Source: Candidatus Woesearchaeota archaeon
GTDB taxonomy: Archaea; Nanobdellota; Nanobdellia; Pacearchaeales; GW2011-AR1
Direction: 5' to 3'
DNA: 52,917 nt
Assembly (NCBI GenBank): GCA_964494915.1
Contig: CAZBTP010000002.1
Coordinates: 1-52,917, forward strand
The notes under the pieces were generated by a model that saw only the letters and a program-made list of their open reading frames with translations, made no database searches and had not been told where the DNA came from. Numbering within the stretch: the first letter of the stretch is position 1; each line of letters opens with the position of its first letter. A program made the position numbers and the translations under genes. This document shows, in pieces, positions 26,997 to 44,701 of this stretch.

Positions 26997-27452
26997 TTAT
27001 GCAGTTATTTTTTCAGCGATTGTTCCGGTTGATGTAAGATCTACTAAACTGCCACTCTTACGGTAGTTGATAACAATGTCGCCTTTGAACGTGTTGCCTA
27101 CTGTTAATGCACTTGAGCAGGGTATGACCATTGTTGTTATGGAACTTGTGCTTACTGATAATGATGTTCCGTTAATACCGCAGCCTGTTACGTTTATACT
27201 TTGAAGTGTAAAATCTTCACCACCATTATTTCGTAATTCGAGAACAACTCCGGGACTACCGCTTCCTGTGTTTGCTTGTACATTCCACGCGTTTATATAG
27301 AATGGTGCTGTCACTATTGCAGAGCCAGAAACATACTTGCCAGGACTGAATACTCCGAAATAGGCGAGGACACCAATGGCGATAATAGCTGCTAATATAG
27401 CCCAGCCATAGGTCATCAAGAACTCCATCGCTGCTTGTCCTTTATGGTTCAT
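26997..27452 (-). CDS. Archaeal type IV pilin-like protein (class III signal peptide, DUF361-like)
   Basis: MNHKGQ/AAMEFLMTYGWAILAAIIAIGVLAYF: a short basic leader, a KGQ cleavage context and a hydrophobic helix. Confidence 0.7.
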   Translation of the reverse strand: MNHKGQAAMEFLMTYGWAILAAIIAIGVLAYFGVFSPGKYVSGSAIVTAPFYINAWNVQANTGSGSPGVVLELRNNGGEDFTLQSINVTGCGINGTSLSVSTSSITTMVIPCSSALTVGNTFKGDIVINYRKSGSLVDLTSTGTIAEKITA

Positions 27453-27529
27453 TCGTACCTCCTTTATATCTTCACGTACTTACCTTATATAACGCCGTAT
27501 TTATAAACTTTCTTATTCTTAAGGAGCGT
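27453..27529. promoter_or_regulatory. Divergent promoter region with TATA-like boxes on both strands
   Basis: tttataaa at 27500-27507 lies about 23 nt upstream of ATG 27530, with aaggag at 27521-27526. On the other strand, ttatataagg (27483-27492 region) and aaaggagg precede the pilin ATG at 27452. Confidence 0.35.
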
Positions 27530-28144
27530 ATGAAAAAGAGGGTTATTGTTGGTATTTTTTTTGTTTTTGTTATTCTTTTGATTATTTTTTTTGGTTTGCG
27601 TGAAGAACTTCGGCTGTTGTTCCAGGATGAGAATGCTCGCGGCTTGCTGCCTCGTTCTGGTGGCGAGGAGGATATTGTTGAGGAGCGTGATGATGTTGGC
27701 CCCCGTGATGTTCGTGAGGATGCTCGTGAAACTGCTGATTCTCAAGAAGGAATGCAACGAGAAGGAACACAAAAAGCAGGATCTCTGTTTGGGGGTGTTG
27801 ACGGTGGTGTTGATGGAGGTGTTGCATCGTCATCGACGTGTACGCTCATTCGACCGGGAAATATACCTGATGTTTCTTGTTCGGTTCGTTTTATTCGTGA
27901 ACGAGAGGTTTCATTGATTATTGTTAATCAGCTTGGGCAGGATATTGTTGCAAATCTTCAGCTTGTTCGTTGTTCGCCTGGGGAGAATGTCGCGAGTGTT
28001 GCGAATAATCAGGGCCGGGATTTTGTGTTTTCTTGTGATAATACTGGCAGGAGTGAATTCGAGGAGGATTTGACTGTTACGTATACTATTAATGGACAGC
28101 GTGTTCGTGTGTATGGTTTTGTTAAAGGCCCTGTTAGCTTATAG
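27530..28144 (+). CDS. Membrane-anchored protein with acidic linker and Cys-containing C-terminal domain
   Basis: N-terminal TM (VIVGIFFVFVILLIIFFG), an acidic low-complexity stretch and GGVDGGVDGG, then a beta-rich C-terminus with 4 Cys. Confidence 0.4.
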   Translation: MKKRVIVGIFFVFVILLIIFFGLREELRLLFQDENARGLLPRSGGEEDIVEERDDVGPRDVREDARETADSQEGMQREGTQKAGSLFGGVDGGVDGGVASSSTCTLIRPGNIPDVSCSVRFIREREVSLIIVNQLGQDIVANLQLVRCSPGENVASVANNQGRDFVFSCDNTGRSEFEEDLTVTYTINGQRVRVYGFVKGPVSL

Positions 28145-28228
28145 CGAGAGACCAAAATAATCCCTCATTCTATTTTGTTCTCTCGAATATAGCAACAGAC
28201 AATATTGGGGAATTAGTAAAGTCTATTG

Positions 28229-29152
28229 CTATATGACTAAATGACGGACGCCGTAGATATCGAGGTGAGGATCATCGAGCTTAAACCAGGAAGGCATGCC
28301 TTGGATTTTGTATGCGGGCGGATTTGAACTTGAGACGTAGATGTAGTCTACGGCTGACTTGTCTTGGATGCCAACTCCCTGCTGTGTAAAGTTTGCAAGA
28401 TTTATGAGCGATTCAATGCCATAGGCATTTGGGTTTGTTTTTCCTTCGAGGCGATTGAGAAAACTGGGGCTGGCTGGGGTGGTAATGTAGTCTGATGAAG
28501 AAAGATGATTCGTGAGATTCGTGACATCGGTGCCGGCGGCGAATCCTGTATAAGGTGTTCTTTGTATTTTGTTGACGACAAGACCGTTACTATGGATAAG
28601 GTAGAGCGGATCTTCGAATCCTTCGATTACGATGTTTGTTGAGATAACTTTTTGTGTATTCCATTGTGCGAGATTTCCTTTATCTTGTATTATCAGGTGT
28701 ATTTTTGCGTCGATACGAACACCCCAAGGGGTATCTTGGGTTACGGTTACTGATTCGATTGTATAGTTTGTGATAAGGCTTACTTTGTCGGATAGATTTG
28801 TTATACGAGCATTCCAGTCAGCGAGACGATAGTTTGTCATAAGTGTCGCTGTTTGGTTTTTTATTGTTCCGTTTATGAGTGCTTCAGTAAGCGCGAGCGC
28901 TGCATTATCGATAAAGGTGCCATTTGTTGTAATATAATTCTCGAGTGAGAGGATTGCGCGAAATCCTGAGATGTAGATTTGTCGTGTGATGTCTTTCTCT
29001 AATGAGAAGACGAAGTTGTTCATTGATGTGACGCGTTGTGTTAGTGTTTCACGCTCTTGAAAACCTGAACGTACTGTATATGATATGACAAATATCGAGA
29101 GGATGATTATTGTTGCGAGTGTAAAAAATATTCCTTTTTTGTTCACCGCCAT
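28229..29152 (-). CDS. Prepilin-like protein (class III signal peptide-like N-terminus)
   Basis: MAVNKKG/IFFTLATIIILSIFVISYTV. The ATG at 29152 gives a 10-nt overlap with the upstream gene, the same spacing as the 31014-31023 junction. The mature domain is N-glycosylation-sequon-rich (NxS/T). Confidence 0.5.
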   Translation of the reverse strand: MAVNKKGIFFTLATIIILSIFVISYTVRSGFQERETLTQRVTSMNNFVFSLEKDITRQIYISGFRAILSLENYITTNGTFIDNAALALTEALINGTIKNQTATLMTNYRLADWNARITNLSDKVSLITNYTIESVTVTQDTPWGVRIDAKIHLIIQDKGNLAQWNTQKVISTNIVIEGFEDPLYLIHSNGLVVNKIQRTPYTGFAAGTDVTNLTNHLSSSDYITTPASPSFLNRLEGKTNPNAYGIESLINLANFTQQGVGIQDKSAVDYIYVSSSNPPAYKIQGMPSWFKLDDPHLDIYGVRHLVI

Positions 29153-31023
29153 GTTCGTACTTGTACCTCTGTTGACCATAGATAGGGAACGCCTGATATG
29201 TCGAGCGTGTCTATGCCGAAACTGTCTTGTGATACAATGAGATCTATTTTTCCGTCGGCTTCTGCATCGAATTGTTTCATGAGTCTATCGACTGCATCGT
29301 CGATTGCGTCGTTTGCAGGATCCCAGCTGTCTGCTCCATCGCCAATAACGATGTTTTTTGTTGTGCCATCTTGGAAGGTGAGTGTAATGGTTCCTCCCCT
29401 TGCTTTGTTTTTCGTGTCACCATAGCTTACGAAACTTTTTATGAAATAGGTGAGGATTCCGTATGATGATGTGTTTGAGATGCCATAGCCTGGTCCAAAG
29501 TCGAGTGAGAAGTTGTTTGTGCCCTCGAGAAAGAGACCTGCTGCCTTGTTTGGCGAATACCCAAATCGACTGAATGCTGGGATGTAGGCCTCTGGTGGGG
29601 CGTTGTAGAGTGTTACGGCGTTTGCTGTTGCTCTTTGTGAAGTGTTTCCTGCAAGCGAGAGCCAGCCAAGTTGCCAATCTGCGAGTAATGCGAGTGAATT
29701 CTTCGGAAGATGAAAGCGCCAGGTTAGGTTTCGGTAGAATGTATTCTGAAGGAGATTTGTTGCGTTTTTGAGTGGTATTCCTCCTGTGAGATCAATAGAG
29801 CCAAAAGGCGGTGAGGGTTGCGTTGCGTCTACTAGAACATACGAGTTTTTTCGGAGGGCTGTTTGTTGATTTGTTGAACCCATCTTTACAATGACAAAGA
29901 AGTATTCGTTTGTTAGACTCTGGGGAGATAATCCTCCAGCAGTTAATGCTGTTTGTATCTCGCTTTTTGTGAAGTTTATTAGTCCACTTGCTGCTGGTGC
30001 TTTTGTTCCAATGAGAATTGTTTGCGGTCCTTTTCGTATGTAGGCGGTTGACGAATGTGTCGCATTTAGAATAATTTCAAGCGCATTTACTTGTGTTGGA
30101 ATAAAGAGGGCTTTTTCGTGATAGAGGACACCTCGTGTGTTTAGGAGATTGAAGGGATAGCTGTTTCCGTAGGTAAATGTTTGTAGGTCTGGCGTGGTAT
30201 ATTCGACTACGATATGGGAGGCTCCGTCATCACCGCCTGTTGTGCTGTCGAGAATTGCTGTATTGTTTCCTGCGTGTACGAGAGCGGTGATATTTATGAT
30301 GGTAAAATACTGGATGTCGCCATCGAATACTTTTATTCCGTTGACGTATAATTTTGTCGGTTGACCGACCCATGCAGGTTCGGCGAGCCACCAGGCGTTG
30401 TTGATTGTTGCGTTTGTGGGGACTGGGATTGTGTAGGTTATGTTCGTTGCTGCTGGACCACAGTAATCTCCCCAGGAGTAGGTTCTCCATTTTCCACACA
30501 TAAGATCGCCTCGTATTGAGAGCACTGTACTTTTTGCACTAATTTGTTTTAACCATGCTTTTGATACGTATCCTTTTGATGGGCCCGCGAGTGAGACGCC
30601 ACTTACTGTTTCACGCGCTACGGAGATCTCGCGCGCTGTTGTGTAGGGTGTTGTATTTATTGATGCTGTAAGATTGTTGTCATACCATATTCCGATATTT
30701 TCTGTTGTATTGAGTGTTTTTAACACGTCTTGTGCGAGTGCTTGCGCTGTGCTGCTATTTGTTGTATAGAGCGCACCAATTTGTTCGATGAGGCTGCTGT
30801 TGGTATCATTGATTACCTTTGCTGCAATAAGCGATTGAATAAGACTTGAGTTCATCTCTCCGACTTTTAATGTTGAGAGTACTTTGATAATATCCCCTGG
30901 TAGTTTTGTTGTTGATCTGGAGGATTCAAAGACAGGGTAGGCAACAAAGGTAACTGCGAGTAGGATAATGAGTGCGATGAGCGCGTCGATACTAAAAAAG
31001 AAGCCGTTGCGATTCATGCCCAT
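29143..31023 (-). CDS. Large (626 aa) prepilin-like extracellular protein
   Basis: MGMNRNG/FFFSIDALIALIILLAVTFVAY followed by about 590 aa of Thr/Asn/Ser-rich, beta-rich sequence with many NxS/T sequons. Confidence 0.5.
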   Translation of the reverse strand: MGMNRNGFFFSIDALIALIILLAVTFVAYPVFESSRSTTKLPGDIIKVLSTLKVGEMNSSLIQSLIAAKVINDTNSSLIEQIGALYTTNSSTAQALAQDVLKTLNTTENIGIWYDNNLTASINTTPYTTAREISVARETVSGVSLAGPSKGYVSKAWLKQISAKSTVLSIRGDLMCGKWRTYSWGDYCGPAATNITYTIPVPTNATINNAWWLAEPAWVGQPTKLYVNGIKVFDGDIQYFTIINITALVHAGNNTAILDSTTGGDDGASHIVVEYTTPDLQTFTYGNSYPFNLLNTRGVLYHEKALFIPTQVNALEIILNATHSSTAYIRKGPQTILIGTKAPAASGLINFTKSEIQTALTAGGLSPQSLTNEYFFVIVKMGSTNQQTALRKNSYVLVDATQPSPPFGSIDLTGGIPLKNATNLLQNTFYRNLTWRFHLPKNSLALLADWQLGWLSLAGNTSQRATANAVTLYNAPPEAYIPAFSRFGYSPNKAAGLFLEGTNNFSLDFGPGYGISNTSSYGILTYFIKSFVSYGDTKNKARGGTITLTFQDGTTKNIVIGDGADSWDPANDAIDDAVDRLMKQFDAEADGKIDLIVSQDSFGIDTLDISGVPYLWSTEVQVRTWR

Positions 31024-31493
31024 ACCTCGACTGTTATTGAGATTGGTTTGTTTTTGTAGATCGTTAATCTTGATAGTTTTGCAAGATGGTTCGGCGTATT
31101 CGGCGTAAGACCAATACCGTTGAGCTGTTGTCCGTTGATCGTTATTTGTTCTGAGAATGTAATATAATAATCATAGCGTAGTCTGGTGATGGCTTTTGTT
31201 TTTTTATAGTCTTGAATTGAGAGATTATAGAATGATTCGAGTTTGGTTTCATTTATTTTATTGTTTGTCAGCAATCCGATTTGAGAGAGCGTTGTTGTGT
31301 TCCACGTTGGAGGAACTCCCTCTGAGAGGAGTATTGTCGCGAGCATGTCAGCTTCTGCAATTAATTCTGGGAGAGCCTCTTGGTCTGACGAGGCGTTTAG
31401 GGTATAGAGATAAAAAAAGATAATTCCTCCTACAAAGATGATCGCCGCGATAAAGAGGTCGAATCCCCATGCTTGTGCTTTTGCATTCATCAT
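31014..31493 (-). CDS. Prepilin-like or ArlF/G-like small membrane-anchored protein
   Basis: MMNAKAQAWG/FDLFIAAIIFVGGIIFFYLY. 4-nt overlap with the upstream KaiC-like gene. Confidence 0.45.
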   Translation of the reverse strand: MMNAKAQAWGFDLFIAAIIFVGGIIFFYLYTLNASSDQEALPELIAEADMLATILLSEGVPPTWNTTTLSQIGLLTNNKINETKLESFYNLSIQDYKKTKAITRLRYDYYITFSEQITINGQQLNGIGLTPNTPNHLAKLSRLTIYKNKPISITVEVWA

Positions 31494-32227
31494 CCCTTTT
31501 CTTTGTTTATAGAAACAGGATTCGGATCGATTACAATGCCTTTTTCATCTTCGATTGTAAAGTGATAGAGTTTTTTTGAGTGGTTTGTTCCCCTCATCTT
31601 CAATATCTCAATAAAGCGTTGACGTTCATTTCCTATTCTCTTGTAATAGAGGACGATGATTGCGTCGCTCTCGAATTCAAGGGGCTTCGGTGCTACTTTT
31701 ATTCCTTGAATCGGGACTTCTTCGAATGTGAGGAGCGAGGTGCAATTCCAGTCTCGGATCGTACCGAAGAGAGAGAGCGCTGCTTCGCGTTGCGAGGCTT
31801 TATCTTCAAAGAGTTCTGCAAATGCGGTAATGCTGTCGATAACCATTCTCGTTACTTTTTGTTTTATGATAATATTTTCAATTACACCTCCCCCTTCTTC
31901 GAGCATTGTTTTTATCTTTCCTGGCGTGTATTCGAGGAAGGTGAATAATCCTTCTTTTTCATACGCTTCTAAATCCCAGTCGAATTCGAGCATGTTCGTG
32001 TAGAATTGTTCTCTTTTTTCTTCGAATGTTACGTAGAGACAGTGTTCGCCTTTTTTTATGCCGCCGACTAAAAATTGGGCTGCAAAGACAGACTTTCCAC
32101 TTCCTGATCCGCCCACGAGTAAGTTTGTTGTGTTTTTTTCGAAACCGCCCTCGATGAATTCGTCAAAATGAGGGATGTCTGTTGGTACGCGCACAATTCG
32201 TTCTCGTTTATTCTTTTTTATTGGCAT
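31490..32227 (-). CDS. KaiC/RecA-superfamily single-domain ATPase (ArlH/FlaH-like)
   Basis: Walker A LLVGGSGSGKSVFAAQF, HCLYVTFEE and a Walker B-like MVIDSI. At 245 aa it is the size of ArlH. Confidence 0.75.
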   Translation of the reverse strand: MPIKKNKRERIVRVPTDIPHFDEFIEGGFEKNTTNLLVGGSGSGKSVFAAQFLVGGIKKGEHCLYVTFEEKREQFYTNMLEFDWDLEAYEKEGLFTFLEYTPGKIKTMLEEGGGVIENIIIKQKVTRMVIDSITAFAELFEDKASQREAALSLFGTIRDWNCTSLLTFEEVPIQGIKVAPKPLEFESDAIIVLYYKRIGNERQRFIEILKMRGTNHSKKLYHFTIEDEKGIVIDPNPVSINKEKG

Positions 32228-32273
32228 TATGACATTGTGATAGGAATCCCATATAAAAACTTATCGTGGTTTT

Positions 32274-33188
32274 CTATTTGAAGAAGTCTGCGAAATAGCT
32301 TAGGAGGACGGTTCGTGAGACGAGATATACGAAGGTGCTGCATATGATGAGCGGTACTACGTATTTGAGCCCTTCTCTTTCTTTTCCTTTGCTTACCAGT
32401 CCGACGACTAGCGAGGCGAGAATATCTATGGCGATAATAAATGATAATGAAAAGTACATAATAAAGGTTGGGGAAACAGAGAGCTTTGTGAGTGTGAAGG
32501 GGAGGTTAATGTTTGCTTGTCCGATGGGAAGGTCTGCGAAAAGTGCTGATAGTATACTCACCAGGACAGATGAAAGACCAAAAAGGATTGGTGCTCCGAC
32601 TGCTACTGCGAAAAATATAAAGATAACATACATAAGGACGTTTGATGCCGCGCGTTTTTGTACAAAGATACGTTCTCGCATGTTTACTGCTGTTTCTTCG
32701 AGGAGGATCGAGATATTTCCTCCTGAGATTATGCCTGAGCTTATGAGCAGGATTGTTTTTTTTATTTCCTCTGATTGGATACGCTCCCCCATATTGCGGA
32801 GCGCATGTGTTATCTCTTTTCCTGCGATAATGTCTTTTCCTAATCGTAGGATTTCTTGATCGAGCGGCGAGAATTCTTTTCTGGAGCTGAGCAGTAATGC
32901 TTTATCGATTGTTATGCCTGCTCGAAGATTCGATGCCATTAGTGCAATGAAATCGGGAAATACTTCCTCCATCTTTTTAAGTTCTTTTGTCTGACGGAGT
33001 TTTTTTTGTATTGAGAAGAATAGTATGGTGAGCGTGAGTATGCTTATCGAGATTATAAGTGTTGTTCCTATACTTCTGGAGATCAGGAAGGTAATGGCTC
33101 CTATGATCAGCGTTGCTAAACCTGTTCCTATGATTATTTTTTGTGAGGGATTTGCTCTGCGTCCTTTCTCTGTTTTTTGTGTTTCCAT
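32274..33188 (-). CDS. Type II secretion system F-domain platform protein, half-size (TadC-like)
   Basis: One T2SSF-like domain (FPDFIALMASNLRAGITIDKALL...) flanked by TM spans. The ATG at 33188 sits 1 nt after the upstream stop (33190-33192). Confidence 0.7.
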   Translation of the reverse strand: METQKTEKGRRANPSQKIIIGTGLATLIIGAITFLISRSIGTTLIISISILTLTILFFSIQKKLRQTKELKKMEEVFPDFIALMASNLRAGITIDKALLLSSRKEFSPLDQEILRLGKDIIAGKEITHALRNMGERIQSEEIKKTILLISSGIISGGNISILLEETAVNMRERIFVQKRAASNVLMYVIFIFFAVAVGAPILFGLSSVLVSILSALFADLPIGQANINLPFTLTKLSVSPTFIMYFSLSFIIAIDILASLVVGLVSKGKEREGLKYVVPLIICSTFVYLVSRTVLLSYFADFFK

Positions 33189-33189
33189 T

Positions 33190-34077
33190 CTAGATGAGAC
33201 TTGGCCTGATTGATTTGATGACTCCGAGGAACATTGTTTGAATGATAATAACGCCAACTAATAAACCGATGAAGAGCAGTGTGCTTATTGATTGTGATAA
33301 CTGGACGAGTGAGGAGATGATCGTAAGGAAGGTTATTGAGAGTGCTGGAAGGATGACTGAAATGAGCATGTAGAACATGATCATTGGATTTAATTTATTG
33401 CCGTAGTTTTGGATTTGGATGAGTTGTTCTTGACTTAATGCGTGGATACTCTCGCGGATAACAATTGAGATGTCGCTTCCTGCACGCATTCCGTTGCTGA
33501 TCTGCCAGAGTGTTCGGCGGAAAAATACCGATGGATTTGCTTCGCCTAGCTCTTCGAGTACTTGGATTTGTGGATAGCCTGCATTAATCCTCCGTACTGC
33601 TTTTTTGAACTCATCACTAAGCGCTCCGTAATCTGAAGAGGAGATGTTTACCATAATTCTGAAGAGCGGTACTCCTGATTGTAGTTGCACATGGATATCT
33701 TGTAATGCTGAGATGAGGTGACGTTCAATGTCTCTTTGTTTTCTCGTGACATAGACGCGAGGGTATACTATTCGACTAAAAAAGATAAAGAGACCTGCGA
33801 GAAATGCAATGGCTATGGCAAATATAATTGCGCGTTCTACTTTCGTGATTACAAAGATTGTTGAGCTTAGTATAAAGAAGACGATGAAGGTTAGTATCGC
33901 TCCTTGAAGAGAGATTGCGAGATATTGTTCTCTCGTGAGCTCGATGTTTGTCTGAGCGAGAAGGTTACCGAGGGTTGATTTTTTTCGATAGCTAAAAAAA
34001 CGAGTCAGTGGTGCTGAACGTTTCTTTAATTTGTCTATGGGGGATATGGTGAATGGTATATGAAACTTCATTCTCAC
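33190..34077 (-). CDS. Type II secretion system F-domain platform protein, half-size (TadB-like)
   Basis: One T2SSF-like domain (IERHLISALQDIHVQLQSGVPLFRIM...) plus TM spans. 4-nt overlap with the ATPase gene. Confidence 0.7.
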   Translation of the reverse strand: MRMKFHIPFTISPIDKLKKRSAPLTRFFSYRKKSTLGNLLAQTNIELTREQYLAISLQGAILTFIVFFILSSTIFVITKVERAIIFAIAIAFLAGLFIFFSRIVYPRVYVTRKQRDIERHLISALQDIHVQLQSGVPLFRIMVNISSSDYGALSDEFKKAVRRINAGYPQIQVLEELGEANPSVFFRRTLWQISNGMRAGSDISIVIRESIHALSQEQLIQIQNYGNKLNPMIMFYMLISVILPALSITFLTIISSLVQLSQSISTLLFIGLLVGVIIIQTMFLGVIKSIRPSLI

Positions 34078-35621
34078 CTCTGGAGGAGCGTTTGTACATC
34101 GCCTTTGCTTAGTGCTTGGAGTACGAGGGGTTTATTTTTGTAAACGAGATTCATTATTTTCCCTATTTCAGGAAGACTTCTAATCTTTTTGGATACAAGT
34201 ATTGTGATAATCTGTTGTCGTTCATTGAGAGATTCTTGGATTTCATGCTGTGACATTCCTGTTTGACGACTGATTTCTTCAAAAAAGCGCGAGCTTTCAC
34301 TGTGTCGTACGATTTCGTCGCGTTCGGCACTCCAACGGTAGAGTATATTTGCTTTTGCTCCGCTCTTATCTGCATCGAACTCTGCTATTTGTAACACTCG
34401 ACGGATACCTTTTCTTCGATCACGGAACATAACTACATTGAGGTTTACTGCACGTAAGAGATTTGGAGGAACGTTGATTGGAGGATTTACGAGACGCGCT
34501 ACTGTTTCTGCTGCAGAATCTGCGTGTACGGTTGCATAGACTGCGTGGCCTGTGTGCATTGCTTCGAAGAGAACCATTGCTTCCTGCTGTTTTCGCATCT
34601 CCCCAAGAATAATGCGGTCTGGTCTCATGCGTAGGGAGTTTACGAGTAGATCAAGCATGCTTACTTCTCCTTTTCCTTCTGGATTTGAGATCCGTGTTAC
34701 GAGCGGCGTCCAGTAAAGGAAATTCGGGAGCATAAGCTCGCGTGTATCTTCGATGCTGATTATTCGTTGGTTTGGTGGGATAAAGGGGAGACAGGCGTTG
34801 AGGAATGAAGTTTTTCCTGATCCTGTACCGCCTGAGATAAGAACGTTTAGTTCATATTCGATTGCAAGCCAGAGGAGCGCGGCAGTTTGTACATCGCAGG
34901 TTTTGTTGGTGATCATGTCAACAATTGTGTAAGGATCTCGTGCGAATTTTCTAATTGTGATTGTGTTTCCTTTGGTGTTTATTGGGTAGAGTACTGCGTT
35001 GATACGATCGCCGCTTACGAGGTGTGCGTCGAGGAGAGGGTTCAGGATTGTGATTTGTCTCCCAATACGGCGTGCGATGATATTGGCGTAGTTTACAATG
35101 TCTTCTTCATTCTCGATGGTGATGTTTGTTGTCAACCAGTTATGTTTTCGACTATAGACGCGGATTGGTTCTTTTGCTGCAGGAATGACGATTTCTTCGA
35201 GATTAGGGTCTGCGACAAAAAACTCTATAACACCGAGACCAAGCATTTCTTGCATTAGCGACCCTAATAAAAATGCCTCAACGTCGCTTTCTATATGGGG
35301 TAACTTTTCGCGGAGTAATTTGCGCGCATCTTCCATAAATCTTGTTTTTATTGATGAGAAGAGTGTTGGATCTGTGAGTTCTTTTGTTGTGATGGTTGTT
35401 GCCATGATTAATTCGTTTCTTATATCGTCAAGAAGTCTGGCGGTTGGAGGGCTTATCTCTGGGATGGAGAGATTGTATACTGTATCGAGCGGGTTACGTA
35501 TAATGTAGACTTCAACCTTTGCACCATCAACTTCAACGGTATAGCGATCGATAATTTCTTTCTGTATTTCCTTGCTTTGTTCTTCTTTTTGTTGCATGAT
35601 TGATCTTAGTTTAGTGTTCAT
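34074..35621 (-). CDS. Type IV filament assembly ATPase (GspE/VirB11 superfamily; FlaI/PilB/TadA-like)
   Basis: Walker A LISGGTGSGKTSFLNA, Asp box IISIEDTREL, Walker B RPDRIILGEMR and His box TGHAVYATVHA. Confidence 0.85.
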   Translation of the reverse strand: MNTKLRSIMQQKEEQSKEIQKEIIDRYTVEVDGAKVEVYIIRNPLDTVYNLSIPEISPPTARLLDDIRNELIMATTITTKELTDPTLFSSIKTRFMEDARKLLREKLPHIESDVEAFLLGSLMQEMLGLGVIEFFVADPNLEEIVIPAAKEPIRVYSRKHNWLTTNITIENEEDIVNYANIIARRIGRQITILNPLLDAHLVSGDRINAVLYPINTKGNTITIRKFARDPYTIVDMITNKTCDVQTAALLWLAIEYELNVLISGGTGSGKTSFLNACLPFIPPNQRIISIEDTRELMLPNFLYWTPLVTRISNPEGKGEVSMLDLLVNSLRMRPDRIILGEMRKQQEAMVLFEAMHTGHAVYATVHADSAAETVARLVNPPINVPPNLLRAVNLNVVMFRDRRKGIRRVLQIAEFDADKSGAKANILYRWSAERDEIVRHSESSRFFEEISRQTGMSQHEIQESLNERQQIITILVSKKIRSLPEIGKIMNLVYKNKPLVLQALSKGDVQTLLQR

Positions 35622-36189
35622 TGTACTTCTTTTTTTCTTGTATGTTGTCGGTGTTATCCGCGAGTGCTAGTTCTGGTTCTCCCCAGCGAGGGTAGATAAT
35701 TGTTGCCATATCTCCTTCTTCTAGTATTTTTGCCCACTCCATAACGTTTTCAGAAGTGACGTGGAAGAGGCGTGCAATAACGGAAAAACGGAGTCGTTTT
35801 TTTTCTCGTAGGAGTTCATAGAGCGCGTCTATGTCTGTTTTTATGCCGTGGTGGTTTCCTTGTTGGGCGTGTATTGTTTCTATAGAGCCATGGGGGAATT
35901 TTTCTTCTTGCTTGATTGCAAATACGTGTCGTACGTAGCCGAATATAAATATTATGATAATTGAAAGCCACTCAAGGATGATAATCATTTGCGAGTAGAG
36001 CGGTGTTCGTGGGTAGGTTGTCTTTAATTCTTCTCCTAGTTCGTTTTTTCCTATTGAGAAACCAGAGAGGCCTGTTTCGAAGAAACCAGGAATACTTGTT
36101 CCATAGATGCTAAAATGAGTTATTGAATGTAGTATTGCTAGGATCAGTAGGAGTAGTGCAATAACTTGAAAACGGTCACCTCGTTTCAT
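35611..36189 (-). CDS. Membrane protein with C-terminal winged-helix-like domain
   Basis: Three hydrophobic spans, then IDALYELLREKKRLRFSVIARLFHVTSENVMEWAKILEEGDMATI, which is wHTH-like. It is the first gene of the ATPase operon. Confidence 0.4.
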   Translation of the reverse strand: MKRGDRFQVIALLLLILAILHSITHFSIYGTSIPGFFETGLSGFSIGKNELGEELKTTYPRTPLYSQMIIILEWLSIIIIFIFGYVRHVFAIKQEEKFPHGSIETIHAQQGNHHGIKTDIDALYELLREKKRLRFSVIARLFHVTSENVMEWAKILEEGDMATIIYPRWGEPELALADNTDNIQEKKKYNEH

Positions 36190-36236
36190 CCTTTGGAAAA
36201 AGCAAGAATCTTTAAATATCTTTGTTTACGTTTCTT

Positions 36237-36671
36237 ATGATGATGCTTTTTATTTCTCAGAGGGCGAAGAAGGGTCAGATTAGTACCGAATATGTTATTG
36301 TCCTTGCCTTTGTTCTGTTTCTTATTGCTGGACTTCTTGGTATTGCTTTCTTTTATGCCTCAGAGATTAAGGATGCACTTCGATTAAACCAGCTTGAGCG
36401 CTTTGCAAAGAAAGTAACGACGACTGCTGAGAGTGTTTTTTATGCAGGCGAGCCTTCAAAGACGAGTATTACGGCATATCTTCCTGATGGGGTTTACGCT
36501 GTCGATGTTTCTCCTTATGACTTGATCTTTACGGTGTCGACGCGGTCTGGTGTTGCAAAGATAGCTTATACAAGTAGTGTTGCGCTTACTGGCAATATTT
36601 CTGCTGGTGGCGGTGTTAAAAAGATTGTTATTAGTGCATTACCTACTCGCGTCAATGTGACGTCGGTCTAA
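36237..36671 (+). CDS. Archaeal type IV pilin-like protein (class III signal peptide)
   Basis: MMMLFISQRAKKGQ/ISTEYVIVLAFVLFLIAGLLGIAFFY. tttaaata at 36211-36218 lies upstream of ATG 36237. Confidence 0.6.
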   Translation: MMMLFISQRAKKGQISTEYVIVLAFVLFLIAGLLGIAFFYASEIKDALRLNQLERFAKKVTTTAESVFYAGEPSKTSITAYLPDGVYAVDVSPYDLIFTVSTRSGVAKIAYTSSVALTGNISAGGGVKKIVISALPTRVNVTSV

Positions 36672-36672
36672 C

Positions 36673-37068
36673 ATGGGAGAGAGAGCACAATCAGCAGCTG
36701 AATTTATTATTCTTGCGAGCGTGTTGCTCTTTTTCTTTCTTATTCTTTTTTTCGTTTTTCAGGAGAATATTTCACAGCGGGCGAGGATTCAACGAGAGGG
36801 GACTTTACGAGAGGCTGCATTTTCTATCCAGAACGAGATTACTCTTGCGGGCCAGGCGAGTGAGGGATATGAACGTACTTTTCTTATTCCTGCTCTGATT
36901 ATTAATCGTAACTATAGTGTTATGATTGTCGATACAACGTTGCTTTATCTTATCACGACCGATAGTGATTATAGTATTACGCTCCCTATTCAGAACACTA
37001 CAGGGCAGCCGCGGCAGGGAGGCAATACTATTAAAAAGATTAACTCTACGATTTATTTGAATAGTTGA
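36673..37068 (+). CDS. Archaeal type IV pilin-like protein (class III signal peptide)
   Basis: MGERAQS/AAEFIILASVLLFFFLILFFVF. It starts 1 nt after the previous stop. Confidence 0.6.
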   Translation: MGERAQSAAEFIILASVLLFFFLILFFVFQENISQRARIQREGTLREAAFSIQNEITLAGQASEGYERTFLIPALIINRNYSVMIVDTTLLYLITTDSDYSITLPIQNTTGQPRQGGNTIKKINSTIYLNS

Positions 37069-37694: not shown

Positions 37695-37912
37695 AATCCC
37701 ATATATAAGTATTGTTGTCTTGGTGAATTTGTCGAATTAATCCCAAATACAGACTTTGGCGAGCATACTCATGAAGAACACACAGTGCATGTAATCTTGA
37801 AAGGAAGCTTAGTTTAATTGATCTGGATGGTACAACTCGTAGAGTCTCATTCAGTCCTAATGGTTGTGTGTTTGTTGTCAGCGTAAGAAAAAGAGATAGC
37901 GATCTTAACTAA
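37695..37912 (+). pseudogene. Cupin-domain gene fragment, N-terminally truncated and frameshifted
   Basis: ..FGEHTHEEHTVHVILKGSL (cupin G.H.H...E motif) runs into a stop. The +1 frame continues SLIDLDGTTRRVSFSPNGCVFVV..DLN*. There is no start codon in frame. The 3' tail is part of the duplicated unit also seen at 37298-37352. Confidence 0.35.
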
Positions 37913-38382
37913 AACCTGTAAACAGAAACTCCTTTAGACCTTAGTTGGGAACATAACTCTATTGCTTTTTTATCTAATCTATTACGATTAACATACAATA
38001 TCTCCAACAACCCCAATCGACCTATCCCCTCAGGAAGAGACGTTAATTCATTAAAATCAACATACAATTCCTTCAATGAAGGTAATCTACCTATACTCTC
38101 AGGAAGAAAAGTTAATTCATTATCACCAACATCCAATGTCTCCAACAACTCCAATCTACCTATATTCACAGGAAGAGCCGTTAATCCTAGACAGGAACAG
38201 TCTAGATAAGCAAAATGATTTTTCTTTATTCTTATTTTTTCGGGGTTTTCTCGTAAATAGTCTTCGGCGTTTTTTCCTACAGATCTAAATAATTCAGAAA
38301 CTACTTCGTATTCTCCTCTTTGAACGCTATGACCCAAGAAGTCAACTAGATCATCTAGCGAGGAAGATCCTTGATTTGTCAT
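37909..38382 (-). CDS. Leucine-rich repeat (LRR) protein
   Basis: Four or five ~23-aa LRRs (LTALPVNIGRLELLETLDVGDNELTFLPESIGRLPSLKELYVDFNELTSLPEGIGRLGLLEILYVNRNRL). ATG 38382 (MTNQGSS) avoids overlap with the alaS 3' end. Confidence 0.65.
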   Translation of the reverse strand: MTNQGSSSLDDLVDFLGHSVQRGEYEVVSELFRSVGKNAEDYLRENPEKIRIKKNHFAYLDCSCLGLTALPVNIGRLELLETLDVGDNELTFLPESIGRLPSLKELYVDFNELTSLPEGIGRLGLLEILYVNRNRLDKKAIELCSQLRSKGVSVYRF

Positions 38383-38431
38383 TGTGTAGAAACATAAAAT
38401 TCTATATATAAATATTGTTGTCTTGGAACAA

Positions 38432-40231
38432 TTATTCGAGACGCGCCTTAATCCTTCGCACACCTGCAGCAATGCCTTCTTCTTTTATAATAACGAATCT
38501 GCCGAGCATACGTGTATTACTCACATGCGGTCCAGTACATATCTCCTTACTAAACCACCCACGCTTATCTTTCTGGTCAATAACACTATAGACGAAAACC
38601 AATTCAGGGTACTTCGCACCGAATTCTGCTTGTGCGCCTGATTCGAGCGCCTCGTTGAGGGGCGCTTCTTCTTTTACGATCTTTAAATTAGCCTGAATCT
38701 TTTCGTTCACAAACGTTTCAACACGCTTCACTTCGTCATCTGTTAGCTTTCGAGGAAAGTTAAAGTCAAAACGCAATCGTTCTGACGTGATATTTGATCC
38801 TTTCTGTCGTATGTTTTTATCAATTACTTGTCGTAACGCTTCATTGAGGAGGTGTGTTGCCGTGTGGAGTTTTTTTGTGGTTTCACTTTCATCGGCGAGA
38901 CCTGATTTGAATATGCCTGCGTTCATTGTCCGAGAGAGATCTTGATGTCGTGAAAATTCTTGATTGTATTCTTCGAGATCTACTTTTTTTCCTTCTTCTG
39001 CTGCAAGTTCTTGTGTCATTTCGATTGGGAAGCCGTAGGATTGGAAGAGTAAAAATGCTTCTCTGCCGGTGATGATTTTGTCTTTTACCATCTCTCGGAA
39101 TTTTTTTAGTCCTTTGTCGAGCGTTGCTTGAAATCTCTGTTCTTCAGTCGTGAGCTGTTCATAGATGAAATTTTTATTTCGTTCTAGTTCTTGATAGTCT
39201 GGGTAGAGATTGATAATTACTTTTGCTATGTGAACACAGAATTGTTCTTTTATTCCGAGTATTCTTCCGTAGCGTATTGCGCGGCGTATTAATCTTCGTG
39301 TGATGTATCCTTGACCGATGTTTGAGGGCTGAATTTTATGATCGTCACCAAGAATAAAGGTTGCTGCTCTGAGGTGATCTGCGATGATTCTCATTGGCCG
39401 CTCATTTTTTTTGTATTGCTTTCCAGATACTACTTCTATTTCTTGGATTATTGGTTGAAAGATGCTTGTTTGGTAGACATCGTTTGTTTTGTTGAGAAGT
39501 GTAATTGTTCTCTCGACACCCATGCCTGTGTCGACATTATGACGGGATGCTTTTTCATAGGTATTGTTTTTTGTCTTTATGTATTCCATGAATACGTCGT
39601 TCCAGATTTCGACCCAGCGTTCATCGTTCGGATTAAATTTTCTTGGTGGTTTTTCTTCGCCTGTCCAGTAGAACATTTCAGTGTCTGGGCCACATGGTCC
39701 TGTTGCTCCTGCTGGTCCCCACCAGTTGTCTATTTTTCCTAAAAACGCGATTCGTTCTTTTGCTAGGTTATGTGAGATCCACATGTTTGCTGATTCGTTA
39801 TCGCGCGGCGCATCATTGTCGCCTTTGAAGACTGTTATCGCGAGTTTCTCAGGCGAGAGTTTTAGTACTTCAGTTAGAAATCTGAAACTATATTCGATTG
39901 CTTCTTTTTTAAAATAATCTCCTAGGCTCCAGTTTCCTAACATTTCGAAGAAGGTGTGGTGGACTTTGTCTCCTACTTCTTCTATGTCTTGTGTCCGGAT
40001 ACATTTTTGTACACTTACGAGGCGCGTGCCTAATGGGTGTTTTTGTCCAAGCAGGAAGGGTATTAAGGGGTGCATTCCTGCTGTTGTGAATAGCACTGTT
40101 GGATCGTTTTCTGGTATGAGCGATGATGATGGTATCTCTCGATGATTGTGCTTTTTAAAGAATTCGATGTATGCTCGGATGAATTCTTGCCGCGTTCGTA
40201 TTTGCGGTGCGTGATGTAATCCGCGTTGCAT
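38432..40231 (-). CDS. alaS: Alanyl-tRNA synthetase, short bacterial-type (catalytic + editing domains, no C-Ala domain)
   Basis: N-terminus FFKKHNHREIPSSSLIPENDPTVLFTTAGMHPLIPFLLG, RTQDIEEVGDKVHHTFFEMLGNWSLGDYFK, and editing-domain motifs HTATHLLNEAL and CTGPHV. Only 599 aa. Confidence 0.85.
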   Translation of the reverse strand: MQRGLHHAPQIRTRQEFIRAYIEFFKKHNHREIPSSSLIPENDPTVLFTTAGMHPLIPFLLGQKHPLGTRLVSVQKCIRTQDIEEVGDKVHHTFFEMLGNWSLGDYFKKEAIEYSFRFLTEVLKLSPEKLAITVFKGDNDAPRDNESANMWISHNLAKERIAFLGKIDNWWGPAGATGPCGPDTEMFYWTGEEKPPRKFNPNDERWVEIWNDVFMEYIKTKNNTYEKASRHNVDTGMGVERTITLLNKTNDVYQTSIFQPIIQEIEVVSGKQYKKNERPMRIIADHLRAATFILGDDHKIQPSNIGQGYITRRLIRRAIRYGRILGIKEQFCVHIAKVIINLYPDYQELERNKNFIYEQLTTEEQRFQATLDKGLKKFREMVKDKIITGREAFLLFQSYGFPIEMTQELAAEEGKKVDLEEYNQEFSRHQDLSRTMNAGIFKSGLADESETTKKLHTATHLLNEALRQVIDKNIRQKGSNITSERLRFDFNFPRKLTDDEVKRVETFVNEKIQANLKIVKEEAPLNEALESGAQAEFGAKYPELVFVYSVIDQKDKRGWFSKEICTGPHVSNTRMLGRFVIIKEEGIAAGVRRIKARLE

Positions 40232-44071: not shown

Positions 44072-44701
44072 TTATAAATATCTTTCTAAGTCTCTTATAT
44101 TGGAGATTTCTATGGATTCTTTTTCGTTTATTATAACAATCGGAGTTTTTTCTATTGAGTATTTTTCTTTTATTTTTTTAATGTGTTCGGACTCTAAATC
44201 TGCGTCAAATGAATAAACCATTATTCTCTCTGGAGCAGTATTTTTAAAAGTGCTTAAAATGAAACCTACTTTTTCGCTTTCTTCCTGAATTTCTTTCTTG
44301 TTAGAGTAAAAGAATAAAATCGTAACAAAATCTTTTTCGCATTCAGTTTTTAATTTCTTTATGAGTTCATAATGTTTTAGCTCCAAGGCGGTATAAATAG
44401 ACTTTTGCTCTAGGACGCGATAATCGTCTTTTCTGAATCTTATTTCTAACAAATTTATTTTAATTCCTGTTTCATCCAGCAGTTCGGACGCTTTTAGCAA
44501 AACAGAATCATCGCAATTTAATATTGAAAGTTGATTAATTTTGTTTAACGATTCTAAAATTACGCTGTTCTTGCTTTTGATGTTGTTGTAATTTAAATAA
44601 GAAACTGATAAGGATGTTAATATTATTATTAAAAACATTATATTTGTGAGTATAAACGCGTAAAACATTTTTTTTAGATAGTAATTTCTGGTTGGTTTCA
44701 T
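44072..44701 (-). CDS. Membrane-anchored hypothetical protein, co-transcribed with GT2
   Basis: N-terminal TM. AT-rich island composition. 4-nt overlap with the upstream GT2 gene. Confidence 0.4.
   Translation of the reverse strand: MKPTRNYYLKKMFYAFILTNIMFLIIILTSLSVSYLNYNNIKSKNSVILESLNKINQLSILNCDDSVLLKASELLDETGIKINLLEIRFRKDDYRVLEQKSIYTALELKHYELIKKLKTECEKDFVTILFFYSNKKEIQEESEKVGFILSTFKNTAPERIMVYSFDADLESEHIKKIKEKYSIEKTPIVIINEKESIEISNIRDLERYL

What the first reader, a model, noticed from the sequence alone, without database searches (positions are those of the whole stretch)
26997..37068. Large type IV filament locus combining pilus-like and archaellum-like parts
One minus-strand operon (36189 down to 28229) encodes, in order:
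- a membrane + wHTH protein
- a FlaI/PilB/TadA-like ATPase
- two half-size T2SSF platform proteins
- a KaiC/ArlH-like ATPase
- three proteins with class III-like N-termini (159, 626 and about 308 aa)

Divergent from it are two small pilins (36237.., 36673..). A DUF361-type pilin (26997..27452) lies downstream.

No recognisable archaellin, ArlC/D/E, ArlF/G or ArlX is present, and no prepilin peptidase is in the window, so this is not a standard archaellum. A KaiC/ArlH-type ATPase is a hallmark of archaella, not of simple adhesive pili. If the organism is a DPANN-type episymbiont, this is the obvious candidate for a host-contact or motility appendage, and it takes up about a fifth of the window.
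Basis: partly seen in the sequence, partly recalled or inferred. Interest (0 to 1): 0.7.

Follow-up and report, generated by a model that had tools for sequence, protein, structure and literature searches.

The report
Conserved DPANN type IV pilus locus
This is a complete gene cluster for building a type IV pilus (a surface fibre, most likely for attachment), conserved gene for gene among Woesearchaeota/Pacearchaeota; it is not a hybrid with the archaeal swimming motor, although several of its parts belong to no named family.

Summary
One tightly packed minus-strand operon (36189 to 28229) encodes:
- a 2-TM protein
- a T2SSE ATPase
- two single-domain T2SSF platform halves
- a single-domain KaiC-type ATPase
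- three proteins with class III-like N-termini (159, 624 and 307 aa)

Two pilin genes diverge from it. A further pilin gene (26997-27452, also minus strand) forms its own unit.

Every gene has a homologue, mostly in the same order, in 15 distinct Woese/Pacearchaeota loci. The cleavage motifs are conserved.

The "archaellum-like" reading is weak:
- The KaiC protein resembles true KaiC CI domains (E 3e-65), not ArlH (E 4.5e-6; NCBIfam ArlH 70 bits against a cut-off of 215).
- The ATPase misses the ArlI cut-off (278 against 550).
- No archaellin, ArlF/G or ArlJ signal was found.
- KaiC/FlaH-like secondary ATPases and split platforms are already described for non-motility archaeal pili (Makarova 2016; Denise 2019).

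The 624-aa protein models as a pilin-like helix followed by lectin/CBM-like β-sandwiches. The 307-aa protein models confidently (pLDDT 92.7) but has no solved structural analogue.

Best reading: an Epd/Tad-like adhesive pilus with a DPANN-specific accessory set. Novelty: new variant of a known kind. Interest is moderate.

The parts
36673..37068 (+). Divergent pilin 2 (131 aa). Predicted cleavage MGERA|QSAAEF (Q+1, E+5). Remote member of Pfam DUF7266.
   Evidence: ORF; motif conserved in 18 sequences; 15 of 18 family members hit DUF7266 (best E 1.2e-5), 4 of 18 hit PF04021, and 2 homologues carry a C-terminal dockerin.
36238..36671 (+). Divergent pilin 1 (about 142-144 aa from the ATG cluster at 36238-36246). 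Predicted cleavage KKG|QISTEY (Q+1, E+5).
   Evidence: PF04021 16.7 bits on the N-terminus (sub-threshold); hhalign probability 94% to pilin 2, over the N-terminus only.
36190..36237 (.). 48-nt divergent promoter region with one TTTAAATA/TATTTAAA TATA box (36211-36218), about 20 nt from each start codon. The motor-operon side carries the motif GATATTTAAAG-TTCTT-C, which recurs in related loci.
   Evidence: sequence; the same motif lies about 25 nt upstream of the first operon gene in L004, L009, L015, L018 and L019. Promoter function is inferred.
35611..36189 (-). First operon gene (192 aa). Two TM helices, then a conserved cytoplasmic C-terminal domain of about 60 residues that is weakly winged-helix-like. 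Overlaps the ATPase start by 11 nt. Proposed membrane anchor or regulator of the ATPase.
   Evidence: 17-sequence alignment; weak PF09645/HTH_11/MarR hits; no solved relative. Present before the ATPase in every locus that covers that position. The role is inferred.
34074..35621 (-). Assembly ATPase (515 aa) of the T2SSE/VirB11 superfamily. Same length and architecture as afGspE and FlaI, but not an ArlI orthologue.
   Evidence: T2SSE 3e-36. FlaI model 278 bits against cut-off 550; TadA 184 against 373; afGspE 2oap 2e-66, FlaI 2e-52, CpaF 3e-44; 63-74% identical across thousands of Nano/Pace/Woesearchaeota proteins; the 10 sampled full-length relatives also miss the ArlI cut-off.
33190..34077 (-). 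Platform half 1 (295 aa), one T2SSF domain (TadB/EpdJ-like).
   Evidence: one T2SSF stretch, 1.7e-14; paralogue of half 2, 24% identity, E 3e-10.
32274..33188 (-). Platform half 2 (about 304 aa from ATG 33188), one T2SSF domain (TadC/EpdK-like).
   Evidence: 3.2e-15. ArlJ model only 27 bits against cut-off 400. Homologue lengths of about 296-402 aa, mostly 296-339, fit the shorter start.
31490..32227 (-). Single-domain KaiC-type ATPase (245 aa) with a short polybasic N-terminal tail. Walker A, the TFEE catalytic pair, Walker B and LKMRGTxHS are (near-)invariant in the family.
   Evidence: PF06745 1.7e-58. KaiC 8zn5 3e-65, PH0186 9e-33, FlaH 4yds 4.5e-6. ArlH 70 bits against cut-off 215; motif conservation. 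Always directly after the platform genes, including in the rearranged loci L016 and L017.
31014..31493 (-). 159-aa pilin-like protein. Predicted cleavage KA|QAWGFDL. Proposed minor pilin.
   Evidence: 15 sequences; Q7, W9 and D12 invariant; no solved or Pfam relative apart from a weak full-length DUF7287 hit (E 0.07-0.1).
29143..31017 (-). 624-aa pilin-like adhesin candidate: N-terminal helix (RNG|FFFSIDAL), a small helical region, then all-β jelly-roll/CBM-like domains. Homologues of about 1000 aa carry an inserted vWA domain.
   Evidence: AF2 pLDDT 89.8. Foldseek hits to BcsB, Cry1Ac, GH2 glycosidases (β-galactosidase/β-glucuronidase), Pleurotus lectin and reelin, E down to 5.5e-8, probability 1.0, low global TM; vWA in long variants.
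28229..29152 (-). 307-aa conserved protein. KKG|IFFT N-terminus, a 73-residue N-terminal helix, then an α/β domain with no solved analogue. Proposed minor pilin or tip-complex component.
   Evidence: 154 homologues, all 'hypothetical', no Pfam domain; every named source is Nano/Pace/Woesearchaeota; pLDDT 92.7; no PDB match better than E 0.016, TM <= 0.21.
27530..28144 (+). 204-aa membrane-anchored protein between the operon and the downstream pilin gene. Present in only some related loci, so membership is uncertain.
   Evidence: homologues at the same position in L002, L012 and L013 (29-35% identity); no family hit.
26997..27452 (-). 151-aa pilin. Predicted cleavage KG|QAAMEFLMTYGWAILAAIIAIGVLAYFGVFSPG (Q+1, E+5). 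The mature N-terminus is almost invariant across loci. Monocistronic. Proposed major pilin.
   Evidence: 11 sequences. TATA-like boxes, GGAGGT 6 nt before the ATG, oligo-T after the stop. PF04021 sub-threshold for the window's protein, detectable in some homologues.

Best explanation
The locus encodes an archaeal type IV pilus machine of the split-platform (Epd/Tad-like) kind, conserved in Woesearchaeota and Pacearchaeota.

Shown:
- A secretion-superfamily ATPase, two half-size platform proteins, a KaiC-type ATPase and a 2-TM protein form a 'motor' block.
- Six proteins carry conserved class III-like N-termini.
- Every gene has a homologue, mostly in the same order, across distant relatives.

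Inferred mechanism:
1. A prepilin peptidase encoded elsewhere cuts the Q+1/E+5 pilins.
2. The hexameric ATPase, docked on the TadB/TadC-like platform, extrudes them into a filament. Its main subunit is probably the 151-aa pilin at 26997-27452.
3. The 159-, 624- and 307-aa proteins form a priming or tip complex that displays a lectin-like head (a vWA head in other lineages), so the fibre binds glycans or proteins on a host cell or surface.
4. The KaiC-type ATPase binds the assembly ATPase, as ArlH does with ArlI and as TadZ/MinD-type ATPases do in other systems, and gates assembly through its nucleotide or phosphorylation state.
5. The 2-TM protein tethers or regulates this cytoplasmic complex.
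For: - Core parts: T2SSE, two T2SSF and KaiC domains.
- Operon structure and conserved cleavage motifs.
- Conserved gene content and order in 15 distinct loci; in L016 and L017 the pilin-like block moves as a unit while ATPase-platform-KaiC stay together.
- The ATPase and its sampled nearest relatives are not ArlI.
- KaiC catalytic motifs are (near-)invariant.
- The 624-aa protein models as helix plus CBM/lectin-like β-sandwiches; homologues swap in vWA and dockerin adhesion modules.
- The 307-aa protein has a very long N-terminal helix.
- The downstream pilin has a near-invariant mature N-terminus and its own expression signals.
Against: - No prepilin peptidase in the window or within 10 kb in any related locus, so processing is unproven.
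- No short Flp/EpdE-type pilin in the window. The candidate major pilin has a globular domain, unlike Epd/Tad.
- I did not build an ATPase phylogeny with named reference clades, so 'Epd-like' rests on architecture.
- Roles of the KaiC protein, the 2-TM protein and the three non-canonical pilin-like proteins are inferred by analogy only.
- Foldseek matches for the 624-aa protein are domain-level, with low global TM (0.10-0.14).
- There are no expression or imaging data.
Confidence: 0.72

Rival explanations
1. An archaellum-like rotary motility organelle: the KaiC-type ATPase plays ArlH, and the 159-aa and 307-aa proteins play stator-like roles (ArlF/G), making a divergent swimming motor.
For: A KaiC-family ATPase is fixed next to the ATPase and platform. 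The ATPase's best NCBIfam model is FlaI, and it has the minimal FlaI/afGspE-like length. Two small-to-medium proteins have uncleaved-looking pilin-like N-termini, as ArlF/G do.
Against: - FlaI model 278 bits against cut-off 550; ArlH 70 against 215; ArlJ 27 against 400.
- The KaiC protein is far closer to KaiC CI than to FlaH and keeps the TFEE catalytic pair, whereas ArlH does not hydrolyse ATP (PMC8978795).
- No archaellin Pfam hit on any pilin.
- Profiles of the 159- and 307-aa families returned no archaellum protein (ArlF/ArlG) among solved-structure sequences at E <= 10.
- The split platform is an Epd/Tad trait, not an archaellum trait.
Confidence: 0.06
2. A type IV filament used mainly for uptake or secretion rather than attachment: a competence-like DNA-uptake pilus, or a short pseudopilus or bindosome-like structure that scavenges substrates for a metabolically reduced cell.
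For: The same core machinery (ATPase, platform, pilins) drives competence pili and the bindosome. The ATPase scores 155 bits on the BasE model. DPANN cells depend on imported nucleotides and nutrients (general knowledge). Sivabalasarma and Albers propose TFF machines functionalised with binding proteins.
Against: - BasE 155 bits against cut-off 1000.
- No substrate-binding-protein domain on any class III protein in the locus.
- The large pilin-like proteins carry adhesion-type modules: CBM/lectin-like, vWA and dockerin.
- No DNA-binding or ComEA/ComEC-like gene was identified among the locus proteins scanned against Pfam/NCBIfam.
Confidence: 0.15
3. The KaiC-type gene is a general signalling ATPase that merely shares the operon. 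It controls expression or timing and is not a physical part of the pilus motor.
For: Makarova et al. treat KaiC-family ATPases in T4P loci as predicted regulatory or modulating proteins (PMC4858521). The H. volcanii KaiC-like protein CirA is implicated in motility regulation (PMC10983859, title and abstract only). The first operon gene has a weak winged-helix signal that could be its output.
Against: The gene never separates from the ATPase and platform genes in 15 loci, even where the pilin block has moved. It is 55-67% identical across loci, close to the level of the ATPase (63-72%; 92% in the near-identical locus L004). No KaiB-like partner was noticed among the locus proteins scanned, though this was not tested specifically.
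Confidence: 0.2

Closest known systems
Epd pilus of Methanococcus maripaludis / archaeal TFF 'system 1' (clade 1 of Makarova et al. 2016; 'Epd-like' of Denise et al. 2019)
   Same: - Two contiguous platform genes, each with a single T2SSF domain.
- A secretion ATPase plus a secondary FlaH/KaiC-family ATPase.
- Several class III proteins with Q at +1 and E at +5.
- A large class III protein with a sugar-binding-type domain.
- Reported to occur in DPANN.
   Different: - No EppA peptidase in the locus.
- No short (about 70 aa) major pilin lacking a globular domain; the candidate major pilin here is 151 aa.
- The 2-TM protein and the 159- and 307-aa proteins match no named family.
- Clade membership of the ATPase was not tested by phylogeny.
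Euryarchaeal 'clade 2 / system 2' pili (Haloferax PilB3/PilB4 loci, Archaeoglobus afGspE)
   Same: - The best solved relative of the ATPase is A. fulgidus GspE (2oap, 2e-66).
- Many clade 2 loci have two tadC genes, and KaiC ATPases can be co-transcribed with the ATPase/TadC operon.
- Divergent pilin 2 is a remote member of DUF7266.
   Different: - Sivabalasarma and Albers describe system 2 ATPases as having extended N-termini and a single platform gene; here the ATPase is minimal and the platform is split.
- No PilA-family or arCOG02911 assignment could be made with the tools available.
Archaellum (ArlI-ArlJ-ArlH motor with ArlF/G and ArlX or ArlCDE)
   Same: A T2SSE-family ATPase of FlaI-like size, a KaiC-superfamily accessory ATPase encoded beside it, and class III-processed filament subunits.
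   Different: - The ArlI, ArlH and ArlJ curated cut-offs are all missed.
- The KaiC protein is KaiC-CI-like and retains catalytic glutamates.
- The platform is split.
- No archaellin, ArlF/G, ArlX or ArlCDE was detected.
Bacterial Tad/Flp pilus (CpaF/TadA, TadB, TadC, TadZ)
   Same: ATPase followed by two half-size platform genes; a secondary P-loop ATPase in the motor block; an adhesive function is expected.
   Different: - CpaF is a weaker match than the archaeal ATPases (3e-44); the TadA model scores 184 bits against cut-off 373.
- The secondary ATPase is KaiC-type, not a MinD/ParA-type TadZ.
- No Flp-type short pilin.
- The host is an archaeon.

Membership tests
Type IV filament (TFF) superfamily, archaeal T4P | Secretion-superfamily (T2SSE/VirB11) assembly ATPase | tested here: met
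   PF00437 3e-36, 125 bits against cut-off 24.9. Solved relatives are afGspE, FlaI and CpaF.
Type IV filament (TFF) superfamily, archaeal T4P | Polytopic platform protein with T2SSF domain(s) | tested here: met
   Two adjacent genes, each with one PF00482 domain above cut-off.
Type IV filament (TFF) superfamily, archaeal T4P | Filament subunits with a class III signal peptide (short basic leader, G/A at -1, hydrophobic helix) | tested here: met
   Motifs are conserved in 11-18 homologues per family. No dedicated predictor (FlaFind) was available. PF04021 is sub-threshold for the window's own proteins but hits some homologues.
Type IV filament (TFF) superfamily, archaeal T4P | Class III (A24) prepilin peptidase in the genome | not testable with these tools
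   None in the window, and none within 10 kb in 15 related loci. The rest of the genome is not available. The peptidase is often encoded elsewhere (PMC8978795).
Archaellum | ArlI-type motor ATPase | tested here: not met
   NF058587 scores 278 bits against cut-off 550. Ten sampled full-length relatives score 234-351.
Archaellum | ArlH | tested here: not met
   NF052589 scores 70 bits against cut-off 215. FlaH 4yds E 4.5e-6, against KaiC 3e-65.
Archaellum | Single two-domain ArlJ platform | tested here: not met
   The platform is split into two single-domain genes. The ArlJ model scores 27 bits against cut-off 400.
Archaellum | Archaellins and ArlF/ArlG (plus ArlX or ArlCDE) | tested here: not met
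   No archaeal flagellin or other archaellum family hit on any locus protein. Profiles of the 159- and 307-aa families returned no archaellum protein among solved-structure sequences at E <= 10. Very remote structural similarity cannot be excluded for the 159-aa protein, which was not modelled.
Epd-like pilus / TFF system 1 | Two contiguous platform genes, each with one T2SSF domain | tested here: met
   Criterion taken from PMC6668835 and the 2026 preprint.
Epd-like pilus / TFF system 1 | Secondary FlaH-like ATPase (arCOG04148) in the core block | tested here: inconclusive
   A KaiC-superfamily ATPase is present and fixed in the block. arCOG assignment could not be made, and the protein is closer to KaiC CI than to FlaH.
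Epd-like pilus / TFF system 1 | Short major pilin without a globular domain (EpdE/Flp-like) | tested here: not met
   No such ORF in the window. The pilins present are 131-151 aa. One could be encoded elsewhere in the genome.
Epd-like pilus / TFF system 1 | ATPase branches with clade 1 / Tad in a phylogeny | not tested
Only score comparisons with afGspE, FlaI and CpaF were made.
Circadian KaiC | Tandem CI-CII double domain of about 500 aa, with KaiB/KaiA partners | tested here: not met
   The protein is a single 245-aa domain that aligns to CI (residues about 10-236 against 11-247). No KaiB-like gene was noticed among the neighbouring proteins scanned, though this was not tested specifically.

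The most novel reading that the evidence does not exclude
This is a distinct TFF subtype, apparently confined to Woese/Pacearchaeota among the named sources. Its motor couples the assembly ATPase to a catalytically active KaiC-type ATPase and a membrane-tethered winged-helix protein. Its filament is primed or capped by three lineage-specific pilin-like proteins, one with a fold that has no solved analogue. The cap carries an exchangeable adhesion head (lectin-like, vWA or dockerin). On this reading it is the principal organelle by which these ultra-small archaea recognise and hold their hosts, which would contradict statements that DPANN genomes lack type IV pili (bioRxiv 10.1101/2020.05.14.094862).
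Probability: 0.35. Interest if true: 0.65.

Novelty: new variant of a known kind. Interest (0 to 1): 0.45.

Why it matters
Woesearchaeota and Pacearchaeota are abundant, uncultured, small-genome archaea thought to live attached to other cells. How they attach is unknown.

A locus of about 10 kb is a large investment for a genome of roughly 1 Mb. Its ATPase stays 63-74% identical across the group, which points to an important function. One groundwater study used the presence of pili to identify cells as CPR bacteria, on the grounds that DPANN genomes lack pilus genes. This locus shows that assumption is unsafe for these lineages.

The locus also gives concrete targets:
- a candidate major pilin for antibodies and cryo-EM
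- a lectin-like candidate adhesin for host-range studies
- a natural example of a KaiC-type ATPase fixed in a pilus motor block, useful for comparison with ArlH

The general architecture is already in the literature, so this extends known biology rather than overturning it.

Tried and rejected
- Literature search failed three times on time-outs, and so did one look-up by DOI; one search was a badly formed query. Later searches worked. Makarova et al. 2017 on KaiC hubs is not held.
- Sequence profiles of the 2-TM, 159-aa and 307-aa families against solved structures gave nothing usable. Pfam scans of all members gave only weak or scattered hits.
- Foldseek of the 307-aa model against the PDB gave only non-significant NTF2-like/PARC6-type matches.
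- hhalign between the locus's own families showed the three Q+1 pilins share only their N-termini. The 159-, 624- and 307-aa proteins are not detectably related to them, so I dropped the idea that all six are recent paralogues.
- I considered the MinD-type ATPase at 24215-24973 as part of the system, following Makarova's prediction for clades 1 and 2. No MinD/ParA-type gene appears in the annotated flanks of L001-L003, so I list it only as noticed.
- I considered a proper ATPase phylogeny. The representative library has no names, and reference sequences for the Epd, Halo, Aap and Ups ATPases could not be obtained. Instead I scored the window's ATPase and 10 of its full-length relatives against curated NCBIfam models.

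Full report
**1. What is in the sequence**

ORF listing confirms a run of eight minus-strand genes from 36189 down to 28229. They overlap or nearly abut (overlaps of 11, 4, 4, 4 and 10 nt; a 1-nt spacer between the platform halves; the largest gap is 46 nt before the KaiC gene). Pfam and NCBIfam give:

| Coordinates (strand) | Length | Assignment |
|---|---|---|
| 35611-36189 (-) | 192 aa | 2-TM protein, no family |
| 34074-35621 (-) | 515 aa | T2SSE ATPase, 3e-36 |
| 33190-34077 (-) | 295 aa | one T2SSF domain |
| 32274-33188 (-) | about 304 aa | one T2SSF domain |
| 31490-32227 (-) | 245 aa | KaiC PF06745, 1.7e-58 |
| 31014-31493 (-) | 159 aa | no family |
| 29143-31017 (-) | 624 aa | no family |
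| 28229-29152 (-) | 307 aa | no family |

The two platform halves are paralogues (24% identity).

Two pilin genes diverge from the operon (about 36238-36671 and 36673-37068, plus strand). They are separated from it by only 48 nt, which contain a single TTTAAATA box.

A further pilin gene, 26997-27452, is on the minus strand. It has its own TATA-like boxes, a GGAGGT ribosome-binding site and an oligo-T tail.

No A24 prepilin peptidase is present. The window's polytopic membrane ORFs are a rhomboid, a SpoIIM protein, an amino-acid permease and GT2 glycosyltransferases.

**2. Organism and conservation**

The ATPase has thousands of relatives at 63-74% identity, named Nanoarchaeota, Pacearchaeota or Woesearchaeota by their sources. 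The nearest genome locus, at 92% identity, is a Candidatus Woesearchaeota MAG.

I fetched 21 related loci, 15 of them distinct with useful coverage. In every one where the contig reaches far enough, every gene of the window's locus has a homologue, mostly in the same order: pilin 2, pilin 1, then divergently the 2-TM protein, ATPase, platform, platform, KaiC, 159-aa protein, large protein (about 620-1090 aa), about-310-aa protein, and nearby the 151-aa pilin.

In L016 and L017 the block of 159-aa, large, 310-aa and 151-aa genes has moved to follow the two divergent pilins. The 2-TM, ATPase, platform, platform and KaiC genes stay together. So the locus consists of a motor module, which includes the KaiC gene, and a pilin module.

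A motif GATATTTAAAG-TTCTT-C lies about 25 nt upstream of the first motor gene in the window and in L004, L009, L015, L018 and L019.

**3. The pilin-like proteins**

Alignments show conserved class III-type N-termini.

- Three canonical ones, with Q at +1 and E at +5:
  - [KR][KR]G|QIS.EY
  - [KR][GA]|QS[AS]IEF
  - KKG|QAAMEFLMTYGWAILAAIIAIGVLAYFGVFSPG
- Three non-canonical ones:
  - K[AG]|QAWGFDL
  - [KR]G|[IV]FFS.DAL
  - KKG|IFFT

The 151-aa pilin's mature N-terminus is almost invariant across loci whose ATPases are only 63-72% identical. Together with its monocistronic layout, this makes it the best candidate for the major subunit (inference).

Pfam's Class_IIIsignal model (PF04021, the former DUF361) is sub-threshold for the window's own proteins (10-17 bits against 23.7). 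It does hit some homologues. Fifteen of 18 members of the pilin-2 family hit DUF7266 (best 1.2e-5), and two carry a C-terminal dockerin.

Profile-profile comparison shows the three canonical pilins share only their N-termini. The three non-canonical proteins are separate families.

**4. The large proteins**

With a 42-sequence alignment, AlphaFold2 models the 624-aa protein at pLDDT 89.8. The model has an N-terminal helix, a small helical region and then all-β domains. Foldseek matches BcsB, Cry1Ac, GH2 glycosidases (β-galactosidase and β-glucuronidase), a Pleurotus lectin and reelin repeats. E-values go down to 5.5e-8 at probability 1.0, but global TM is low, as expected for multi-domain matches. 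Homologues of about 1000 aa carry an inserted vWA domain. I read this protein as a pilus-borne adhesin with an exchangeable head.

The 307-aa protein models at pLDDT 92.7, with a 73-residue N-terminal helix and an α/β domain. It has no PDB match better than E 0.016 and TM 0.21. Its 154 detectable homologues are all 'hypothetical'; those that carry a source name are from the same archaeal group.

**5. Is anything archaellum-like?**

- The ATPase's best curated model is FlaI, but it scores 278 bits against a cut-off of 550. The TadA and BasE models are also missed.
- Its best solved relative is A. fulgidus GspE (2e-66), ahead of FlaI (2e-52) and CpaF (3e-44).
- In a search of 1.84 billion cluster representatives, I scanned ten full-length relatives at 33-41% identity. 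All score only 234-351 bits on the FlaI model.
- The KaiC-type protein matches true KaiC CI domains at 1e-50 to 3e-65 and the single-domain PH0186 at 9e-33. It matches FlaH (4yds) only at 4.5e-6, and the ArlH model at 70 bits against 215.
- Its Walker A, TFEE, Walker B and LKMRGTxHS motifs are (near-)invariant in 16 sequences. ArlH, by contrast, binds ATP but does not hydrolyse it (PMC8978795).
- No archaellin, ArlF/G, ArlJ, ArlX or ArlCDE signal was found.

**6. What the literature already says**

- Makarova, Koonin and Albers 2016 (PMC4858521) report KaiC-family ATPases strongly associated with several non-archaellum T4P systems, sometimes co-transcribed with the ATPase/TadC operon. They report two tadC genes in clade 1 and in many clade 2 loci.
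- Denise, Abby and Rocha 2019 (PMC6668835) define Epd-like and Tad systems by two single-domain platform genes, and list a FlaH-like secondary ATPase in Epd.
- Makarova, Wolf and Koonin 2019 (PMC6393860) show DPANN T4P islands full of 'dark matter' pilins.
- Sivabalasarma and Albers 2026 (bioRxiv 10.64898/2026.04.22.720090) place split-platform 'system 1' loci, and some 4A loci, in DPANN. [quoted passage not shown] They do not mention a KaiC component in DPANN loci.
- A groundwater preprint states that type IV pilus components are missing from DPANN genomes (10.1101/2020.05.14.094862).

None of the papers I could read describes this specific gene set.

**7. Interpretation**

The locus is an archaeal type IV pilus system of the split-platform (Epd/Tad-like) kind, with an accessory set seen so far only in Woese/Pacearchaeota.

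- Shown: the core domains, the operon structure, the conserved cleavage motifs, the conservation of gene content and order, and the non-membership of ArlI, ArlH and ArlJ.
- Inferred:
  - cleavage by a peptidase encoded elsewhere
  - the 151-aa pilin as the major subunit
  - a priming or tip complex of the three non-canonical proteins, with a lectin-like head
  - the KaiC-type ATPase as a nucleotide- or phosphorylation-dependent partner of the assembly ATPase
  - the 2-TM protein as anchor or regulator
  - adhesion to a host or surface as the function

Rivals (a rotary motility organelle, an uptake or secretion filament, KaiC as a purely regulatory passenger) are scored in the report sections.

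**8. Verdict**

- The 'pilus plus archaellum parts' interpretation is only partly supported. Its key premise is contradicted by published surveys, and the KaiC protein is not ArlH-like.
- Novelty: a new variant of a known kind.
- Interest: moderate (0.45). The value lies in pointing to the likely attachment organelle of a large uncultured archaeal group and to several unnamed protein families, one of them with no solved structural analogue.

Noticed in passing
window 1-44000: The plus strand has a very strong G-over-C skew: 0.26-0.43 over 1-12 kb, then mostly 0.1-0.24 up to about 44 kb (with a dip to about 0 at 36-40 kb). It is roughly zero from 44 kb on. The sign does not follow gene orientation: the minus-strand pilus operon still shows plus-strand G excess. 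This looks like a strand-wide (replication-type) asymmetry, with a change point near 44 kb.
   Followed up: partly
window 8972-9060 (+): tRNA-Glu(UUC) is 89 nt long, while the Rfam tRNA model (71 positions) spans 87 nt. An intron or other insertion is likely.
   Followed up: no
window 24215-24973 (+): An archaeal MinD-type ATPase (TIGR01969, 237.6 bits, above its cut-off) lies about 2 kb from the pilin gene. Makarova et al. 2016 predicted that clade 1 and 2 pili use a FleN/MinD ATPase. No MinD/ParA-type gene appears in the annotated flanks of L001-L003, so a link is unproven.
   Followed up: partly
window 14979-18629 (+) and 44698-45960 (-): An apparent polysaccharide operon: a 482-aa protein that was not scanned, a membrane GT2 with a chitin-synthase-like match, and a DUF2334/polysaccharide deacetylase. 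A second membrane GT2 lies elsewhere. Together these suggest export of a surface polysaccharide.
   Followed up: no
window 36190-36237; L004, L009, L015, L018, L019 upstream of the first motor gene: The motif GATATTTAAAG-TTCTT-C recurs upstream of the first motor gene. In the window, the two divergent units are only 48 nt apart and appear to share one near-palindromic TATA box, implying very short or no leaders.
   Followed up: partly
Proteins P0283, P0286, P0287, P0292-P0299 and others: Many ATPase relatives are 1000-1240 aa and match the 515-aa query in two pieces, broken near query residue 293 with an insertion of about 480-700 aa. This would fit inteins in the ATPase core. The window's gene has no such insertion.
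   Followed up: no
L002 8110-8934 (-), L021 3840-4655 (-); L009, L015, L018, L019 large-protein homologues: Adhesion modules are swapped between lineages. Pilin-2 homologues gain a C-terminal dockerin. The large pilin-like protein gains a vWA domain, with a DxSGS (MIDAS-like) motif visible in the consensus, in the ~1000-aa forms.
   Followed up: partly
L016 3045-9084 and L017 2678-9233: In these two loci the block of 159-aa, large, ~310-aa and 151-aa genes sits downstream of the two divergent pilins instead of after the KaiC gene. This gives one 'pilin' operon and one 'motor' operon.
   Followed up: yes
window 31490-32227 (-) and homologues in L001-L020: Nearly all KaiC-type homologues carry a lysine/arginine/histidine-rich N-terminal tail of very variable length, about 10 to 110 residues (the L013 form is very short). 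Its role (membrane or nucleic-acid contact?) is unknown.
   Followed up: no
window 37909-38472 (-): A 187-aa leucine-rich-repeat protein (LRR_8 8e-14) lies next to the pilus locus, overlapping the start of a short (599-aa) alanyl-tRNA synthetase gene.
   Followed up: no
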